From the IMG/VR virus record IMGVR_UViG_3300042398_000319, positions 12,947 through 76,946 of that record: a stretch of DNA of 64,000 nucleotides, one strand, 5' to 3'. Within the stretch, counting starts at the first letter, position 1. Every line of letters starts with the position of its first letter. The notes under the pieces were generated by a model. That model made no database searches and was not told where the DNA came from. It saw only the letters and a program-made list of their open reading frames with translations. The stretch is from a virus. Both the position numbers and the translations under genes were made by a program. Of this stretch, positions 9,890 to 42,645 are shown piece after piece.

Positions 9890-10513
9890 ATGGCTGGATA
9901 CCTTCAAGGCAGTGGATCAATATCCCTGTCTCAAATTAACTCCGTCTTTGATGGCCGTGGGCTTAACATAGGGGCTTATAGAGGTACTGCTTGGTATACA
10001 GCCGGTGGTGGCTCTGGCACATTTCCAACTTCGGGATCACTTGCTTTTGATTATTTTTATGGTAAAGGCCCAAATCCTGCATTTACAGTAGCTTATTCAA
10101 GTGGCTTTGGTAATGGTTACTTTATTGATGATGTGTTCTACTCCTTCGGAGAACCAGCTGGCGCAGGTATTCGGTGGAATACCAATGGAACTATGGATCA
10201 ATACGGGTATGATTTTGGATATCAACCTCTTGGGGAAACTTGGGGGAATCCAACTACTTCTGGGATAGGCTCAAACTACTGGATTCGGTTTACCCGAACA
10301 GCAACAGACGGTTTTGGTGCAGCTGCTGCTTCTACTGCTTCTACTGGTTGGGTTCAATTAGATTCCCCAGGTAGAGAAATCACTATTTACCAAGCCTCAG
10401 CTACCCAAATTAGTGCTACATATACTGTAGAAATATCTTCAAGCTCTTCAGGCTCACCTGTATTAACTACACGAACTGGTATTACTATTGGACTATCTAA
10501 TGGTTACCTCTAA
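9890..10513 (+). CDS. Putative virion / tail-tip protein
   Basis: Gly/Ser/Thr-rich with an N-terminal SGSISLSQI motif; located in the tail-fibre operon. Confidence 0.5.
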   Translation: MAGYLQGSGSISLSQINSVFDGRGLNIGAYRGTAWYTAGGGSGTFPTSGSLAFDYFYGKGPNPAFTVAYSSGFGNGYFIDDVFYSFGEPAGAGIRWNTNGTMDQYGYDFGYQPLGETWGNPTTSGIGSNYWIRFTRTATDGFGAAAASTASTGWVQLDSPGREITIYQASATQISATYTVEISSSSSGSPVLTTRTGITIGLSNGYL

Positions 10514-10587
10514 TTAAAAGATAATTAAACAAATATAACAGGAAGTCACTACCTGACATTTAGTGACAATTTAAAAAGGAAATTAAA

Positions 10588-10821
10588 ATGGGAAAAAATG
10601 AAAAGACCCCTGTAAATATCGATGGCGTAGAATACAAGTATGAGGACATGAGTCAGCAACAACAAATGTTGTTAAACCATGTTGCAGACTTAGATCGCAA
10701 AATTGACTCCTCTAAATTTAACTTGGATCAACTCCAAGTAGGTCGTAACACGTTCTTTGATATGCTTAAGAAGGCTTTGTCAGAAGAGCAACCAGCAGAG
10801 ACTCAACCAGTACCTGCTTAA
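10588..10821 (+). CDS. Small coiled-coil phage protein
   Basis: AAGGA RBS; last gene before a terminator. Confidence 0.6.
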   Translation: MGKNEKTPVNIDGVEYKYEDMSQQQQMLLNHVADLDRKIDSSKFNLDQLQVGRNTFFDMLKKALSEEQPAETQPVPA

Positions 10822-10828
10822 AGTTAAT

Positions 10829-10858
10829 GGTCACCCTGTAAAAAGGGTGGCCTTTTTT
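10829..10858 (+). terminator. Intrinsic terminator ending the late/tail operon
   Basis: GGTCACCCT-gtaaaa-AGGGTGGCC followed by TTTTTT. Confidence 0.85.
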
Positions 10859-10863
10859 ATCAA

Positions 10864-10905
10864 AAAAAGTGAGAAAAATGACGTATCTATAATGAAGAAA
10901 TATCA
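10864..10905 (+). promoter_or_regulatory. 42-bp direct repeat copy 1; putative early (class A) promoter
   Basis: AAAAAGTGAGAAAAATGACGTATCTATAATGAAGAAATATCA, identical to 11070-11111. Lies right after a terminator and upstream of an ORF. Confidence 0.65.
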
Positions 10906-10946
10906 TAATGATAGAGTACTCAATTTAATAACTTTGAAAGATATTC

Positions 10947-11069
10947 ATGACACATGTAGATAAACTGGTTATGGCTCTTGGTAATCGCATCCCTAATTCT
11001 CGAAGATTAGCTTTAAAGGACTTAACTCCTGCTGCTATTAATCGTTTATTTAGGATGAAAAATACCTAG
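10947..11069 (+). CDS. Small hypothetical early protein (40 aa)
   Basis: ATG..TAG frame (MTHVDKLVMALGNR...) filling the space between the two 42-bp repeats; too short for the ORF track. Confidence 0.45.
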   Translation: MTHVDKLVMALGNRIPNSRRLALKDLTPAAINRLFRMKNT

Positions 11070-11111
11070 AAAAAGTGAGAAAAATGACGTATCTATAATG
11101 AAGAAATATCA
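11070..11111 (+). promoter_or_regulatory. 42-bp direct repeat copy 2; putative early (class A) promoter
   Basis: Identical to 10864-10905. Similarity continues imperfectly (AGTACTCAATTTA) towards the RBS of 11156. Confidence 0.65.
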
Positions 11112-11155
11112 ATAAAGATAAAGTACTCAATTTAGTAAACTTAAGGAAAGTTAAA

Positions 11156-11419
11156 ATGTTAAAAGTATTAATTGCAGTGTCTATTGCATTATTGTCTAGT
11201 ACCGCCATGGCATCTAAACATGAAAAGTATGTAGATATGTTAATAGAAGAAGGAGTTTTTAAAGTAGAAGAAAAGGCTAAAGTTATCTGTCAAATGGATG
11301 CTTTAGAGGCTTCATTCTATGCTTTCGATAAGGAATTAAAGAAAGCAAAAGACCCCTTTGCTGTTAAACCAGTAGATCCCTACAAGGTTATAGCAGTATG
11401 TAATAAGAAACACAACTGA
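11156..11419 (+). CDS. Hypothetical exported protein (signal peptide)
   Basis: MLKVLIAVSIALLSSTAMA resembles a signal peptide; AAGGA RBS. Confidence 0.65.
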   Translation: MLKVLIAVSIALLSSTAMASKHEKYVDMLIEEGVFKVEEKAKVICQMDALEASFYAFDKELKKAKDPFAVKPVDPYKVIAVCNKKHN

Positions 11420-11461
11420 TGAGTCTTTATGAGACGAAACCGCTGAGAAGCGGTCTTGTGT
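11410..11461 (+). ncRNA. Hammerhead ribozyme (type I topology)
   Basis: Stem I ACACAA/TTGTGT; core CTGATGA (11416-11422); stem II GTCT/AGAC; GAA; stem III ACCGCT-GAGA-AGCGGT; GUC cleavage triplet at 11453-11455. Confidence 0.93.
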
Positions 11462-11488
11462 ATTTTCCCCTTAACTATGGAGTTTAAA

Positions 11489-11977
11489 ATGAAAAAGTTC
11501 TTGATCGCAGTGTCTTTAAGTGTTGCCGCAGTATCCTCTTTTGCAGAAGAATCTTTCTGTAAACATAAAGAAGTACTTAAGGTAGGCACTTATGGTGCAT
11601 TAGCAGGTGCAGCAGCATCTTTGTTAATCCCTGGTGCAGGTCCAGTAATTGCTACAAGTATTCTTACAGGTACAGTAGTAACTACAGGTAATGTAGCAGT
11701 GTGTGCGTTTGATGAGAAGGATCGTAAGGACAAATTAGCTGCATTCAAAAAAGCTAACTCTGAACCTACATCTTTTGATAAAGCAGTGGCTAAGCCTGTA
11801 GAAGATCGTAGCATAACTGATAAAGCTGTAATCAGCCTTACTCAGGACTACGTCAATGCAGTTGTTAAGCCAGTAGAAGATCGTAGTATTAAAGAGCAAG
11901 CAGTTGTTACAATTTCACAAGGCTACACAAAAGCCCAAGAAAGTGTATCAAAAGCTTACAGTAACCTTACTAAATAA
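11489..11977 (+). CDS. Hypothetical exported/membrane protein with glycine-zipper-like segment and internal repeat
   Basis: GGAG RBS before ATG 11489; MKKFLIAVSLSVAAVSSFA signal peptide; GALAGAAA; duplicated AVxKPVEDRSI. Confidence 0.65.
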   Translation: MKKFLIAVSLSVAAVSSFAEESFCKHKEVLKVGTYGALAGAAASLLIPGAGPVIATSILTGTVVTTGNVAVCAFDEKDRKDKLAAFKKANSEPTSFDKAVAKPVEDRSITDKAVISLTQDYVNAVVKPVEDRSIKEQAVVTISQGYTKAQESVSKAYSNLTK

Positions 11978-12201
11978 GAGGATATATGTCAGAAACTTTC
12001 TTTGATATGGTATTGGCGGTTATAATTGCACTTGTGCTTGTACTCGCTATTCTTCACGGTTTGGATGCATTAATTTACTAAGGATCTGTTATGACATACT
12101 TTGTTTATAACAAAAAAGGTTATTTGATTACAACTACTACAAGTGTAGAAGAACTGAATAAGTTCCTACCTGAACTAGTAGATGTAATTATTTACTAATC
12201 C

Positions 12202-12276
12202 TTCTCGGATAGAGAGACCCTCCAGGGTATGTACTGGACTTTCTCAGCAGAGAGACCTCTTGGGGTAAGTACCAAG
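12202..12276 (+). ncRNA. Tandem pair of hairpin + H-type pseudoknot elements
   Basis: Two units of TTCTC-loop-GAGAG-ACC-Y-[5 nt]-GGT-AWGTA-[5 nt complement]; the second stem covaries (TCCAG/CTGGA versus CTTGG/CCAAG). Confidence 0.55.
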
Positions 12277-12299
12277 TTCTTTTAATTTTTGGAGTTAAA

Positions 12300-12545
12300 A
12301 TGAGTAAATTTCTTTTGTTAAACCCGCTGTATGGAGATAACTTCGGAATTACAGCGCAAGAAATTATTGAATCATTAGAGGAATTTGGTCTTACCTACAT
12401 CTTCTCAAATGACACTAAAGGTATACCGGCAATTTATGCCACAAGTAGATCTAAAGAGTTAATTGAAAGAATGTGTAATGAAGTACAACTTGATGGTTCT
12501 ATCATCGAGTTTACTACAATCTATGACCAAGTAATCGAGGATTAA
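12300..12545 (+). CDS. Hypothetical protein
   Basis: ORF with GGAG RBS. Confidence 0.6.
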   Translation: MSKFLLLNPLYGDNFGITAQEIIESLEEFGLTYIFSNDTKGIPAIYATSRSKELIERMCNEVQLDGSIIEFTTIYDQVIED

Positions 12546-13360: not shown

Positions 13361-15562
13361 ATGCGGAAGCAGAATAAAGGAATGACTATAGTTAATAATA
13401 TATTAGAGAATTTAGTTTCAGATCTTAGAAAAAGACAAGCAGTCTTAAGATCAGATCGTAATATTTACACGCATTATCTTAAAGAAGTAGACCCTACTAC
13501 TCTAGTTGATGTATCGTATCCACACATATTACGAGGTTTAGAAAGACAAGCTACTCTAGTAGATATTGTAGCCACCATTGGTCGAAGAGTAAGGCAAATG
13601 CTTAATCTTCCTAATGATACTGTGTCAGATGCACAGGTTGGTTGGTTCATATGTATTGCTTATATTGAGTGTAATATCCTTACATTCCGATTAAAGTATA
13701 CCTATAAGAATGGAAAGAAAAGTAAATACAAAGCTTACTTCCTACAGGTTAAAGACTGGAAGGCAATTGAACAACTCTGGAGTTTAATTGACCAAAGTAA
13801 AGTAGATATCTTTCCATTAAGAGAACAGACTAAGCCTTGGACATCTGCATTTAATGTTAATGGTTCACCCATTATTAAGAAAGGCCACCCTAGTGCACTG
13901 TCAAAGTTTAGGACTTCAGACAAGCAAGCATTGTTTGATACTCTAAATAAATTACAAGCTATTGGATGGCGAATTAACAAGGATGTGTTTACTGTGTATC
14001 AGCACTTTTTACATAATCCTTGTCACAATAGCCCTTTCAAGTTACACACAGAGATTGATGAAGAGAAGAAACAATCACTTTTGATTGAAGCACAAGGCAT
14101 TGAAAGACTAGCATTAAATCATCTTGATAATGCTTTTTATCATGTCTATAACTTTGATTTCAGAGGTCGAGTTTATGTAAATACAGCGTTTCTTCACGAA
14201 CAATCTAGTGATAATGCAAAGGGCCTACTGTTGCTAGACAAATCAACACCACTAGGTGAAAACGGTCTGTTCTGGCTAAAGGTACATACGTCAAATTCTT
14301 TTGGAAATGACAAGGTGACGCTAAAGCAGAGGGCTGAGTTTGTAGATGAGAATATTAATCTATTCTTGTCATATGCAGATAAACCTACTGTTAATCAAGG
14401 ATGGATGGAAACAGATGCTCCATTTTCTTTTTTAGCTGCTTGTTATGAGCTTAAGAAAATTAAGAACTGGTTAATGGATGGTAATAACTTAGAAGATTAT
14501 CCTTGTTCTTTACCTGTATATATTGATGGTTCTAATAACGGTGTCCAGCATCTAGTTGCTATGTCACAAGATGAAGAGATTGCACCACTAGTTAATTTAG
14601 TACCACAAGATACCCCAGGTGATGTGTACATGTATATTGCTAAATACGCATGGAAACGTTTAGAGGAGCTAGCAAGTCAGCTAACACAAGAGGAACGTGA
14701 TCAATTTGATAGTGTATACAGTAAGGCTAAAGAGTTACAAAAAGCTTACTTTGATGCACCTGAAAAGAGTGAACAAAAATCCTTAGCTTATGCTGCTGCC
14801 CAAGAGTGGCGTAATCAGAATCGTTCTATTAGAGAAAAGTTGTTTGCTGTTTACTGGCTTAATATTGATAACCCAAAAGATCAACGTAAAGTAGTAAAGA
14901 GAAATGTAATGACTCTCGGTTACGGTGGTACTGCGTACGGCATGGGTCAACAAATTATTGATGATACCCGTGATATGTCTGAGTATCTTCGTGACAAGGA
15001 ACACCTCTGGGGTGCTATGTTAGGTGATTTGGTATTTGAGACTTGTTATGAAAAACTCAAAGGGCCAGCAACAATGTTACGAATGTTTCAGGACTTAGCG
15101 GATAGATCTAATAACAAAGATGTATTCCTACAATGGACTACTCCAGTAACAAACTTTCCTGTAGTTCAAGCATATAGAAAACCATCTATTGTTAGAACTA
15201 AATTAAAGTACGGTGAAGAAGAACTTAAAGTTCAACTTCAAACATGGGAAGAATCAACTATTGATAAAGATTCCCAGAGAACAGGTGCAGCACCAAATAT
15301 TGTTCACAGTTTTGATGCAGCACACTTGACTATGACTGTATTGTCTGCTCCATATGAGATGACTGTTGTTCATGATTCTTTCGGTACCCTGCCTGGAAAC
15401 ATGGATGACTTATTTTATAGAGTAAGAGATCAGTTCGTAGAGTTTTACAAGAGTAAACCTTTAGAGAAATTACTGGCTGAACTTAATTGTGAAGACCTTA
15501 TTCCTGAGAGGGGTAATCTCGATGTAAAACAAATATTGTACTCAGATTATGCTTTTTGTTAA
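13361..15562 (+). CDS. T7-like single-subunit DNA-directed RNA polymerase (RNAP-1)
   Basis: DFRGRVY; motif A PVYIDGSNNGVQH; motif B RKVVKRNVMTLGYG; APNIVHSFDAAHL; motif C VVHDSFGT. The start could be 13382. Confidence 0.96.
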   Translation: MRKQNKGMTIVNNILENLVSDLRKRQAVLRSDRNIYTHYLKEVDPTTLVDVSYPHILRGLERQATLVDIVATIGRRVRQMLNLPNDTVSDAQVGWFICIAYIECNILTFRLKYTYKNGKKSKYKAYFLQVKDWKAIEQLWSLIDQSKVDIFPLREQTKPWTSAFNVNGSPIIKKGHPSALSKFRTSDKQALFDTLNKLQAIGWRINKDVFTVYQHFLHNPCHNSPFKLHTEIDEEKKQSLLIEAQGIERLALNHLDNAFYHVYNFDFRGRVYVNTAFLHEQSSDNAKGLLLLDKSTPLGENGLFWLKVHTSNSFGNDKVTLKQRAEFVDENINLFLSYADKPTVNQGWMETDAPFSFLAACYELKKIKNWLMDGNNLEDYPCSLPVYIDGSNNGVQHLVAMSQDEEIAPLVNLVPQDTPGDVYMYIAKYAWKRLEELASQLTQEERDQFDSVYSKAKELQKAYFDAPEKSEQKSLAYAAAQEWRNQNRSIREKLFAVYWLNIDNPKDQRKVVKRNVMTLGYGGTAYGMGQQIIDDTRDMSEYLRDKEHLWGAMLGDLVFETCYEKLKGPATMLRMFQDLADRSNNKDVFLQWTTPVTNFPVVQAYRKPSIVRTKLKYGEEELKVQLQTWEESTIDKDSQRTGAAPNIVHSFDAAHLTMTVLSAPYEMTVVHDSFGTLPGNMDDLFYRVRDQFVEFYKSKPLEKLLAELNCEDLIPERGNLDVKQILYSDYAFC

Positions 15563-42576: not shown

Positions 42577-42645
42577 AGTGGTATAGTTCAATAGGTAGAA
42601 TCAGACGTTATCTCTGGAATGTGAGTTCGAGTCCCACTACCGCTC
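42577..42645 (+). tRNA. Degenerate tRNA / tRNA-like element (identity unassignable)
   Basis: Acceptor AGTGGTA/TACCGCT; D arm GTTC-AATAGGTA-GAAT; T arm GTGAG-TTCGAGT-CCCAC. The anticodon arm is short and non-canonical (CAGA-CGTTATC-TCTG); no encoded CCA. Confidence 0.6.

What the first reader, a model, noticed from the sequence alone, without database searches (positions are those of the whole stretch)
11410..11461. Hammerhead ribozyme whose catalytic core contains the stop codon of an early gene
Seen: a complete canonical hammerhead (CUGAUGA, GAAA, three helices, GUC triplet, GNRA loop on stem III) with predicted cleavage after C11455. The TGA stop of ORF 11156-11419 (11417-11419) lies inside the CUGAUGA core. 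Cleavage would fall 33 nt before the next start codon (11489). Established knowledge: hammerheads occur in some phage intergenic regions, and T7 processes its early transcript with RNase III. Inference: self-cleavage processes the early polycistronic mRNA, giving a 5'-OH downstream RNA, and a terminating ribosome could gate ribozyme folding.
Basis: partly seen in the sequence, partly recalled or inferred. Interest (0 to 1): 0.78.

Follow-up and report, generated by a model that had tools for sequence, protein, structure and literature searches.

The report
Phage hammerhead ribozyme between two genes
A textbook self-cutting RNA (type I hammerhead ribozyme) really does sit between two small genes of this uncultured phage, with the upstream gene's stop codon inside its core, but about 180 distinct phage ribozymes share the same design, so it is an ordinary member of a known kind.

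Summary
Window 11410-11461 (+) is a complete canonical type I hammerhead: every core nucleotide, three helices, a GUC cleavage triplet, and a predicted cut after C11455. The UGA stop of ORF 11156-11419 is U4-G5-A6 of the core.

It is not chance.
- Strict-descriptor hits in 300 shuffles: 0.
- A covariance model built from 69 unrelated phage hammerheads scores it 64.5 bits (E about 1e-18).
- It is 94-98% identical in four related viral contigs, where the flanks are 47-82% identical. It also occurs in seven metagenome contigs.
- The orthologues show one compensatory stem III change.

All Rfam hammerhead models fall below their gathering scores.

It is not unusual either. Two pattern scans of IMG/VR gave about 180 distinct phage type I hammerheads of the same build: a 6-bp stem I flanked by A/A, a 4-bp stem II with a UNANU loop, and GNRA on stem III. 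In 56 of 178 the upstream ORF stops at the same core UGA. The next gene starts a median 25 nt after the cut.

The most likely function is co-transcriptional cutting of an early, pre-RNAP operon mRNA between two secreted-protein genes, as Perreault et al. 2011 proposed for phage hammerheads. Ribosome gating is untested, and genome compaction explains the overlap equally well. This scan has noted stop-codon-flush phage hammerheads many times on other DNA.

The parts
10829..10852 (+). Strong intrinsic-terminator-like hairpin plus T-run that ends the tail/structural module upstream of the unit
   Evidence: 9-bp stem, 6 GC pairs, TTTTTT tail; sequence
11070..11138 (+). Second copy of a duplicated ~70-nt promoter-like element (42 nt identical to 10864-10905; contains a perfect TATAAT at 11093-11098). 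It probably drives the up87-hammerhead-down163 unit.
   Evidence: conserved upstream of small ORFs in L013, L003, L015. Promoter function is inferred.
11156..11419 (+). Upstream ORF 'up87' (87 aa). It has a Sec-type signal peptide by inspection (MLKVLIAVSIALLSSTAMA/SK) and no family match. Its last codons (AAA CAC AAC TGA) encode the stem I 5' strand and the start of the core.
   Evidence: Homologues in L006, L011, L012, L014 and metagenome contigs all end ...(K/Q)HN* at the core UGA.
11409..11409 (+). Unpaired A flanking stem I on the 5' side, a class-typical peripheral nucleotide
   Evidence: A at this position in 147 of 178 class members
11410..11415 (+). Stem I, 5' strand (ACACAA)
11416..11422 (+). 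Catalytic core strand CUGAUGA (C3-A9). It contains stop codon UGA 11417-11419 and a second in-frame UGA 11420-11422.
11423..11435 (+). Stem II (GUCU/AGAC, G10.1-C11.1 present) with loop UUAUG
   Evidence: It fits the class pattern of a 4-bp stem plus a U-N-A-N-(U/G) loop.
11436..11438 (+). Core G12 A13 A14
11439..11454 (+). Stem III (A15.1-U16.1 plus CCGCU/AGCGG) capped by the GNRA tetraloop GAGA 11445-11448. The simple scan also flagged it as terminator-like.
   Evidence: Compensatory C-G to U-A change at 11443/11450 in L006, L011, L260.
11455..11456 (+). Predicted scissile bond: C17 (11455) would carry the 2',3'-cyclic phosphate and U11456 the 5'-OH
   Evidence: Position follows from hammerhead geometry (established knowledge). 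Cleavage itself was not tested.
11456..11461 (+). Stem I, 3' strand (UUGUGU). It becomes the 5' end of the downstream RNA.
11462..11462 (+). Unpaired A flanking stem I on the 3' side, class-typical
   Evidence: A at this position in 147 of 178 class members
11479..11482 (+). Shine-Dalgarno GGAG of the downstream gene, 6 nt before the ATG
   Evidence: conserved in the orthologues
11489..11977 (+). Downstream ORF 'down163' (162 aa). It has a signal peptide (MKKFLIAVSLSVAAVSSFA/EE), a Gly/Ala-rich hydrophobic segment and two 25-aa repeats. No family match.
   Evidence: (D1). A 99%-identical 465-nt contig occurs in a freshwater RNA library.

Best explanation
Window 11410-11461 encodes a functional type I (stem I open) hammerhead self-cleaving ribozyme. 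It belongs to a very large class of compact phage hammerheads.

It is transcribed as part of a short early operon: promoter-like element 11070-11138, then up87, the hammerhead, down163 and further small ORFs. This operon lies between the end of the tail module and the phage RNA polymerase gene.

Once the 52 nt have left the polymerase, the RNA folds into the three-way junction and cuts itself after C11455.

The upstream product keeps the whole ribozyme. That includes the up87 stop codon 36 nt before the new 3' end. It ends in the stem III hairpin with a 2',3'-cyclic phosphate.

The downstream product starts with a 5'-OH. It has a 33-nt leader (UUGUGU...GGAG) in front of down163.

The likely effect is to uncouple the two cistrons. 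Each gets its own defined, structure-protected end and its own stability. The downstream gene's leader becomes independent of whatever gene cassette lies upstream, an insulator-like role.

Shown here: the motif, its conservation, its class membership and its placement. Inferred: actual cleavage, its timing and the consequences for RNA stability and translation.

The overlap of the stop codon with the core is best read as the usual tight packing of this ribozyme class against the upstream gene.
For: - All 13 invariant core positions, G10.1-C11.1, A15.1-U16.1 and a GUC site are present.
- The hammerhead fold is the MFE and centroid structure.
- There is one descriptor hit in the window and none at that stringency in 300 shuffles.
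- Model R1 was built from 69 viral-contig hammerheads that exclude this one and its orthologues. It scores the element 64.5 bits, E 7.5e-19, and the next best hit in the window scores 11 bits.
- Class-level covariation: in A2, 100% of cells are paired, with 295 double-sided changes against 76 in shuffles. Stem III pairs 35-52, 36-51 and 37-50 were not imposed by the search pattern.
- Stem I pairing was not imposed by the pattern either, yet in a general parse of all the fetched loci, which kept only stem I of 5 or more pairs, it is exactly 6 bp in 156 of 178 (the pattern-1 matches before any stem-I filter are listed).
- Orthologues: the element is present in L006, L011, L012 and L014 and in 7 metagenome contigs.
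- The hammerhead is 94-98% identical while the 110 nt upstream are 47-82% and the 100 nt downstream 68-80% identical.
- In L014 the upstream protein is only 35-40% identical, yet its hammerhead is identical to that of L012 and differs from the window's at one loop base.
- Orthologue changes: one compensatory C-G to U-A in stem III, one A-U to G-U in stem I, and one in the stem II loop region (G11431 to U: the optional fifth pair U27.G31 is lost, the 4-bp stem II is intact).
- Placement matches the class: stop at the core UGA in 56 of 178, and the next ATG a median 25 nt after the cut.
- Literature: phage and prophage hammerheads flank genes, cleave in vitro and in E. coli, and were proposed to process long phage transcripts (PMC3088659; PMC6765202).
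Against: - No cleavage assay and no end-mapping data exist for this element.
- All Rfam hammerhead models score below their gathering thresholds.
- Among the orthologues there are only three distinct variants. Their covariation alone is not significant: 158 of 500 shuffles reach it.
- Part of the R1 score is by construction, because the seed sequences were collected with a pattern taken from this element's core.
- Relatives L013, L003 and L015 express a down163-like gene without any hammerhead. The ribozyme is therefore not required for that gene.
- Most close relatives lack the whole cassette.
- The tertiary stem I/loop II contact needed for fast cleavage at cellular Mg2+ is only inferred from class-typical flanking A's and the loop pattern.
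Confidence: 0.85

Rival explanations
1. Translation-gated ribozyme. The up87 stop codon is U4-G5-A6 of the core. A terminating ribosome therefore covers stem I, the core and half of stem II and prevents folding. Cleavage would then report on, or be timed by, translation of the upstream gene.
For: Geometry: the stop lies at 11417-11419 inside the core. Across the class, stops of long upstream ORFs pile up on the ribozyme's 5' edge: +1 in 56, -8/-9 in 43, -3 in 13, -11 in 9 and +11/12 in 20 of 178. The reading frame of the core UGAs is used by 88 of 147 such ORFs, more than one third. Earlier notes of this scan saw the same for type II hammerheads.
Against: The same distribution is expected from plain genome compaction. 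The downstream side is equally minimal, with a median of 25 nt to the next ATG. In a type I hammerhead the whole ribozyme and the stop stay on the upstream fragment, so the overlap costs nothing. Frames other than the UGA frame would force a fixed C-terminal peptide, which explains the frame bias. No competing alternative hairpin appears in the folds. About 40 of 178 class members have no long ORF stop on the ribozyme (none between -11 and +15). I found no paper on this in three full-text searches and the three papers read.
Confidence: 0.15
2. The element acts mainly as an intrinsic terminator or 3'-end stabiliser. On this reading the stem III hairpin followed by a U-rich tract is the functional part, and the hammerhead likeness is incidental.
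For: The simple scan lists 11439-11454 plus CTTGTGTATT as terminator-like.
Against: The U-run starts 8 nt after the hairpin, and the stem has only 6 pairs. This reading does not explain the conservation of CUGAUGA, stem II, GAAA and stem I. It also does not explain the 64.5-bit match to a full hammerhead model or the shared architecture of about 180 other elements.
Confidence: 0.03
3. A ribozyme that is real but without a role for the phage. It would be a selfish or hitch-hiking module carried with the up87 cassette. Alternatively it would serve chiefly as a conserved 50-nt recombination joint for shuffling accessory genes.
For: The cassette is present or absent among close relatives. L012 and L014 are identical from the hammerhead onward but only 52% identical just upstream, so a recombination breakpoint lies at its 5' edge. 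The genome has a single copy.
Against: The hammerhead is kept intact with a compensatory change across alleles of up87 that differ by up to 60-65% in protein sequence. This indicates selection on the RNA structure itself. The class shows strict placement relative to stop and start codons.
Confidence: 0.08
4. A chance match to the hammerhead descriptor in AT-rich DNA.
For: A scan of about 250,000 windows would throw up some chance matches. The Rfam gathering scores are not reached.
Against: There were 0 strict hits in 300 shuffles. The element is conserved above its flanks in 4 viral and 7 metagenome contigs. It scores E 7.5e-19 against an independent class model.
Confidence: 0.01

Closest known systems
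Hammerhead ribozymes flanking genes in phages and prophages (Perreault et al. 2011, PLoS Comput Biol, PMC3088659; reviews PMC6155905, PMC6765202)
   Same: Canonical core; intergenic position in the sense orientation between small, non-conserved phage genes. Processing of long phage transcripts into gene-length mRNAs was proposed there, and cleavage was shown in vitro and in E. coli for other examples.
   Different: Here there is one copy in the genome rather than a cluster, and the architecture is type I. The paper does not mention stop codons: 'stop codon' occurs 0 times in its text.
Rfam Hammerhead_1 (RF00163, type I)
   Same: Same topology. The model aligns end to end (1-45) on exactly 11410-11461.
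   Different: The score of 25.4 bits is below the gathering score of 34. From my own knowledge, untested here, the Rfam seed is dominated by eukaryotic repeat-associated type I hammerheads with longer, bulged stem I. This class has a 6-bp stem I flanked by unpaired A's.
RAGATH-1 hammerhead (RF03152)
   Same: Same order of elements: open stem I, short stem II, long hairpin III, GUC (alignment).
   Different: The score of 25.6 bits is far below the gathering score of 56.3. The extra 5' hairpin of the RAGATH-1 model is not convincingly present.
RNase III processing of the T7 early transcript (established knowledge, not tested here)
   Same: Works alike: an early polycistronic phage mRNA is cut between cistrons, which leaves hairpin-protected 3' ends.
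   Different: The T7 case uses a host protein enzyme acting on long double-stranded sites and gives 5'-phosphate and 3'-OH ends. Here the RNA cuts itself and gives 5'-OH and 2',3'-cyclic phosphate ends.
Synthetic ribozyme insulators such as RiboJ
   Same: A hammerhead placed in front of a gene's leader makes the 5' UTR independent of upstream sequence. This fits the cassette-like variability upstream of down163.
   Different: RiboJ is an engineered part derived from a type III satellite-RNA hammerhead. A natural insulator role for this element is only inferred.

Membership tests
Hammerhead ribozyme (any type) | Conserved core nucleotides C3 U4 G5 A6 N7 G8 A9 and G12 A13 A14 | tested here: met
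   CUGAUGA at 11416-11422 and GAA at 11436-11438
Hammerhead ribozyme (any type) | Three helices around the core, with G10.1-C11.1 and A15.1-U16.1 closing pairs | tested here: met
   The MFE and centroid fold is the three-way junction. The pairs G11423-C11435 and A11439-U11454 are present.
Hammerhead ribozyme (any type) | Cleavage triplet N-U-H (H not G) 5' of stem I | tested here: met
   G11453 U11454 C11455
Hammerhead ribozyme (any type) | Helices supported by covariation | tested here: met
   Class alignment A2: 100% of cells paired, 295 double-sided changes, 0 of 500 shuffles as high. Stem II varies in the second set. Orthologues alone show one compensatory pair, which is not significant.
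Hammerhead ribozyme (any type) | Mg2+-dependent self-cleavage giving 2',3'-cyclic phosphate and 5'-OH ends | not testable with these tools
   Only assembled metatranscriptome contigs were available, and none covers 11124-11447.
Hammerhead ribozyme (any type) | Tertiary contact between stem I and loop II for fast cleavage at physiological Mg2+ | tested here: inconclusive
   The element has the class-typical 6-bp stem I, the flanking A11409 and A11462, and a U-N-A-N-G loop II. No structure or covariation test of a contact was made. A possible loop II pairing with AUAAG upstream is absent in L014.
Rfam Hammerhead_1 / Hammerhead_3 / Hammerhead_II / RAGATH-1-hammerhead | Score at or above the family's gathering threshold | tested here: not met
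   RF00163: 25.4 against 34. RF00008: 33.5 against 48.5, and RF03152: 25.6 against 56.3. RF02276: no match. The gathering-mode scan found nothing.
Compact phage type I hammerhead class (defined here from IMG/VR contigs) | 6-bp stem I flanked by A/A; 4-5-bp stem II with a 5-nt U-N-A-N-U/G loop; 5-7-pair stem III, usually with GNRA; stem I open | tested here: met
   R1 score 64.5 bits, E 7.5e-19. Feature frequencies: stem I of 6 bp in 156 of 178, flanking A in 147 of 178, the 13-nt stem II module in 138 of 183, GNRA in 106 of 183.
Compact phage type I hammerhead class (defined here from IMG/VR contigs) | Placement flush with the upstream stop codon and about 20-35 nt before the next start codon | tested here: met
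   The stop lies at +1 relative to C3, as in 56 of 178 members. The next ATG is 33 nt after the cut, against a class median of 25 and IQR of 22-31.

The most novel reading that the evidence does not exclude
The compact phage type I hammerheads, including this one, are placed so that the ribosome terminating on the upstream gene physically unfolds the ribozyme's 5' half. Self-cleavage would then be coupled to translation of the upstream cistron. For example, only untranslated or ribosome-free transcripts would be cut. This would make these elements a natural translation-sensing RNA switch that needs no ligand or protein.
Probability: 0.12. Interest if true: 0.65.

Novelty: new member of a known kind. 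Interest (0 to 1): 0.3.

Why it matters
On its own this locus adds one more phage hammerhead to thousands. Its value is as a clean, single-copy example with a defined promoter-to-gene context. The biological role of bacterial and phage hammerheads is still described as open (PMC6155905, PMC6765202).

The class survey made here yields three points:
- About 180 distinct type I hammerheads share one compact design.
- The upstream stop codon sits in or just before the core in most of them.
- The next start codon lies about 25 nt after the cut.

This is a testable regularity. It suggests that these ribozymes act as gene 'punctuation' or insulators in phage accessory-gene operons. It also shows that current Rfam thresholds miss this class.

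Tried and rejected
- Rfam at gathering thresholds found only a tRNA in the window.
- blastn of 10500-12500 against GenBank phages gave no match. The nearest named relatives by RNAP are the Naomviridae roseophages DSS3_VP1 and DSS3_PM1 at 50% identity. No hammerhead was found in the 20 kb around the DSS3_VP1 RNAP gene (L002).
- Pfam, PHROGs and the ESM Atlas gave no family for up87 or down163.
- A profile search for more distant up87 homologues in viral contigs returned only the four already known.
- Sequencing runs: four freshwater metatranscriptomes hold parts of the stretch, but only as assembled contigs. One covers down163 (11491-11955). None covers up87 or the ribozyme, so nothing can be said about cleavage, expression or habitat from this.
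It added no further covariation among orthologues.
- I considered a pseudoknot between loop II (UUUAU) and AUAAG 11403-11407. That stretch is coding and is missing in L014, so I did not adopt it.
- A search for other hammerhead types in the whole 76.9-kb genome found none.
- No alternative 'locking' hairpin, as noted elsewhere in this scan, appears in the folds.

Full report
**What is in the sequence**

The stretch 11410-11461 on the + strand reads ACACAA-CUGAUGA-GUCUUUAUGAGAC-GAAA-CCGCUGAGAAGCGG-UC-UUGUGU. This is a complete type I hammerhead, in which stem I is open and stems II and III are capped.
- Stem I is ACACAA/UUGUGU.
- The core has C3-A9 at 11416-11422 and G12-A14 at 11436-11438.
- G10.1-C11.1 is G11423-C11435, and A15.1-U16.1 is A11439-U11454.
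- Stem III is CCGCU/AGCGG under a GAGA tetraloop.
- The cleavage triplet GUC ends at C11455.

The TGA at 11417-11419 ends ORF 11156-11419. It is U4-G5-A6 of the core, and a second in-frame TGA follows. The next gene starts at ATG 11489 behind GGAG 11479-11482, 33 nt after the predicted cut.

**Is it more than chance?**

A descriptor of my own found this one site in 64 kb on both strands. In 300 dinucleotide-preserving shuffles it gave 0.037 loose hits per window and none at the observed stringency. The isolated 62 nt fold into exactly the hammerhead junction as MFE and centroid structure (-16.6 kcal/mol, z -2.9). The junction also survives in the MFE (though not the centroid) structure of a 191-nt context.

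Rfam does not report the element at gathering thresholds. Below threshold:
- Hammerhead_1 aligns end to end on exactly these bases at 25.4 bits against a cut-off of 34.
- Hammerhead_3 gives 33.5 bits against 48.5, in a forced wrong topology.
- RAGATH-1-hammerhead gives 25.6 bits against 56.3, in the right topology.

A scan of some 250,000 windows would produce some chance matches even at this stringency. Conservation was therefore the key test.

**The genome**

The window is bases 12947-76946 of a 76,946-bp IMG/VR virus record with terminal repeats. All large ORFs are on the + strand. Its single-subunit RNA polymerase (13361-15562) is 50% identical to that of the Naomviridae roseophages DSS3_VP1 and DSS3_PM1.

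**Conservation in relatives**

Thirty-two related viral contigs were fetched through the polymerase. The hammerhead is present in four of them: L006, L011, L012 and L014. It is always at the end of a homologue of the 87-aa upstream ORF and in front of a homologue of the downstream ORF.

Across these loci the 52 nt are 94-98% identical to the window. The 110 nt upstream are 47-82% identical and the 100 nt downstream 68-80%. In L014 the upstream protein is only 35-40% identical, yet its hammerhead is identical to that of L012 and differs from the window's at one loop base.

The few changes respect the structure:
- C-G to U-A in stem III,
- A-U to G-U in stem I,
- one base in the stem II loop region (G11431 to U: the optional fifth pair U27.G31 is lost, the 4-bp stem II is intact).

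With only three distinct variants this covariation is not significant on its own: 158 of 500 shuffles reach it. A metagenome scan that left stem III free returned seven more contigs with the same two variants. In each, an up87-family ORF ends ...(K/Q)HN* at the core UGA.

Other relatives lack the whole cassette. L013, L003 and L015 carry a down163-like gene without up87 and without a hammerhead.

**A large class of the same design**

A second pattern with free stem II matched 99. Parsed together, with stem I of 5 or more pairs required, they give about 180 distinct type I hammerheads:

| Feature | Frequency |
|---|---|
| Stem I exactly 6 pairs | 156 of 178 |
| Unpaired A on each flank of stem I | 147 of 178 each |
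| Stem II of 4 pairs with loop U-N-A-N-U | 138 of 183 |
| GNRA tetraloop on stem III | 106 of 183 |

Stem I pairing and stem III pairs beyond the first two were not imposed by the patterns. An alignment of 69 members shows 100% pairing, with 295 double-sided changes against 76 in shuffles.

Covariance model R1 was built from these 69, without the window's element or its orthologues. It scores the window's element 64.5 bits (E 7.5e-19), and nothing else in the window scores above 11 bits. Part of that score is by construction, because the seeds share the core pattern. The whole genome holds only this one hammerhead.

**Placement in the class**

I took long upstream reading frames (60 codons or more, stop to stop) and measured where they stop relative to C3 of the core:

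| Stop position relative to C3 | Members (of 178) |
|---|---|
| +1 (the core UGA) | 56 |
| -8 or -9 | 43 |
| -3 | 13 |
| -11 | 9 |
| +11 or +12 (in loop II) | 20 |

The next ATG-initiated ORF begins a median of 25 nt after the cut (IQR 22-31). The window's arrangement, with the stop at +1 and the start 33 nt after the cut, is therefore the modal one and not an oddity.

Earlier notes of this scan describe the same flush placement for type II phage hammerheads on other DNA. Three full-text searches turned up no paper on it, and of the three papers read the two searched for the term never use 'stop codon'.

**Transcription context**

- A strong terminator-like hairpin at 10829-10852 follows the tail module.
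- It is followed by two copies of a roughly 70-nt element with a perfect TATAAT, at 10864-10931 and 11070-11138. These are the only two in the window.
- The second copy lies 18 nt before the ATG of up87 (element end 11138, start 11156).
- A 17-nt motif, ACCRGGGKACGCTAAAG, stands at four module starts. Its first copy is directly after the polymerase gene, and none occurs between 10.5 and 13.4 kb.

The unit up87-hammerhead-down163 is therefore most likely transcribed before the phage polymerase is made. This supports the label 'early' by inference only.

Both flanking proteins have Sec-type signal peptides by inspection and no family match.

**How it most likely works**

The ribozyme folds as soon as it is transcribed and cuts after C11455. 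This mechanism is established knowledge for hammerheads. It produces a 2',3'-cyclic phosphate on the upstream RNA and a 5'-OH on the downstream RNA.

Because the architecture is type I, the whole ribozyme and the up87 stop codon stay on the upstream fragment. That fragment ends in the stem III hairpin. The downstream fragment keeps only six nucleotides of stem I and a short leader with its ribosome-binding site.

The likely result is two independently stable, independently translated mRNAs. The downstream leader would not depend on which accessory gene sits upstream. This matches the processing role proposed by Perreault et al. 2011 (PMC3088659), which reviews still describe as unproven (PMC6155905; PMC6765202).

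The gating idea is not excluded. A ribosome on the UGA would cover stem I, the core and half of stem II. However, tight packing predicts the same geometry, and no computational test available here separates the two.

**Rivals**

- A terminator reading is weak. The scan flags the stem III hairpin, but the U-run is 8 nt away, and the reading ignores the conserved core.
- A selfish or recombination-joint reading draws on two points. The cassette is present or absent among relatives, and a breakpoint lies at the ribozyme's 5' edge between L012 and L014. The preserved structure across diverged up87 alleles argues for selection on the RNA.
- Chance is excluded by conservation.

**What could not be done**

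Four freshwater metatranscriptomes hold parts of the stretch, but only as contigs. None covers the ribozyme, so there is no evidence on cleavage.

**Verdict**

This is a real, conserved, probably active hammerhead. It is a new member of a known and very common kind. The stop-in-core feature is typical of its class, and ribosome gating remains a low-probability but testable idea.

Noticed in passing
window 12211-12290: Two tandem hairpins (AGAGAGACC-stem-GGUAWGUA-stem-UUCUC) lie just before the ribosome-binding site of ORF 12300. They are conserved in L006, L012, L014, L003 and L013, with a compensatory C-G to U-A change in hairpin 1. They are absent in relatives that lack the upstream cassette. 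There is no Rfam match and the fold z-score is not significant. They could be a processing, protective or protein-binding element. Another first-reader note already covers them.
   Followed up: partly
window 10864-10931 and 11070-11138: A duplicated ~70-nt element (42 nt identical) holds a perfect TATAAT but no good -35. It comes right after the tail-module terminator, and each copy precedes a small ORF. It is conserved in L013, L003 and L015. It is probably a pair of tandem early promoters.
   Followed up: partly
window 15567, 38929, 39551, 56472 (and a 2-mismatch copy at 14310): The 17-nt motif ACCRGGGKACGCTAAAG stands at four module starts, all on the + strand. Shuffles give 0.17 matches. 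It is a candidate promoter of the phage's own RNA polymerase.
   Followed up: partly
IMG/VR loci L035-L248: About 180 distinct phage type I hammerheads share one compact design: a 6-bp stem I flanked by A/A, a UNANU loop II, and GNRA on stem III. The window's member falls below every Rfam gathering threshold; the others were not run against Rfam. The consensus 5' edge (nAG-nnTAA-CUGAUGA-...U[GA]A in loop II) offers stop codons in all three frames.
   Followed up: partly
L012 versus L014, around L012:3876-4136: The two contigs are 100% identical over the hammerhead and 95% identical downstream, but only 52% identical in the 116 aligned columns just upstream. A recombination breakpoint therefore lies at the ribozyme's 5' edge.
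   Followed up: no
window 11780-11926: The downstream gene contains two tandem 75-nt (25-aa) repeats, KAVAKPVEDRSI..., that are 71% identical.
   Followed up: no
window 42577-42645: This is the only Rfam gathering-level hit in the window: a tRNA at 36.6 bits with a short anticodon arm region. Another note calls it a tRNA mimic.
   Followed up: no
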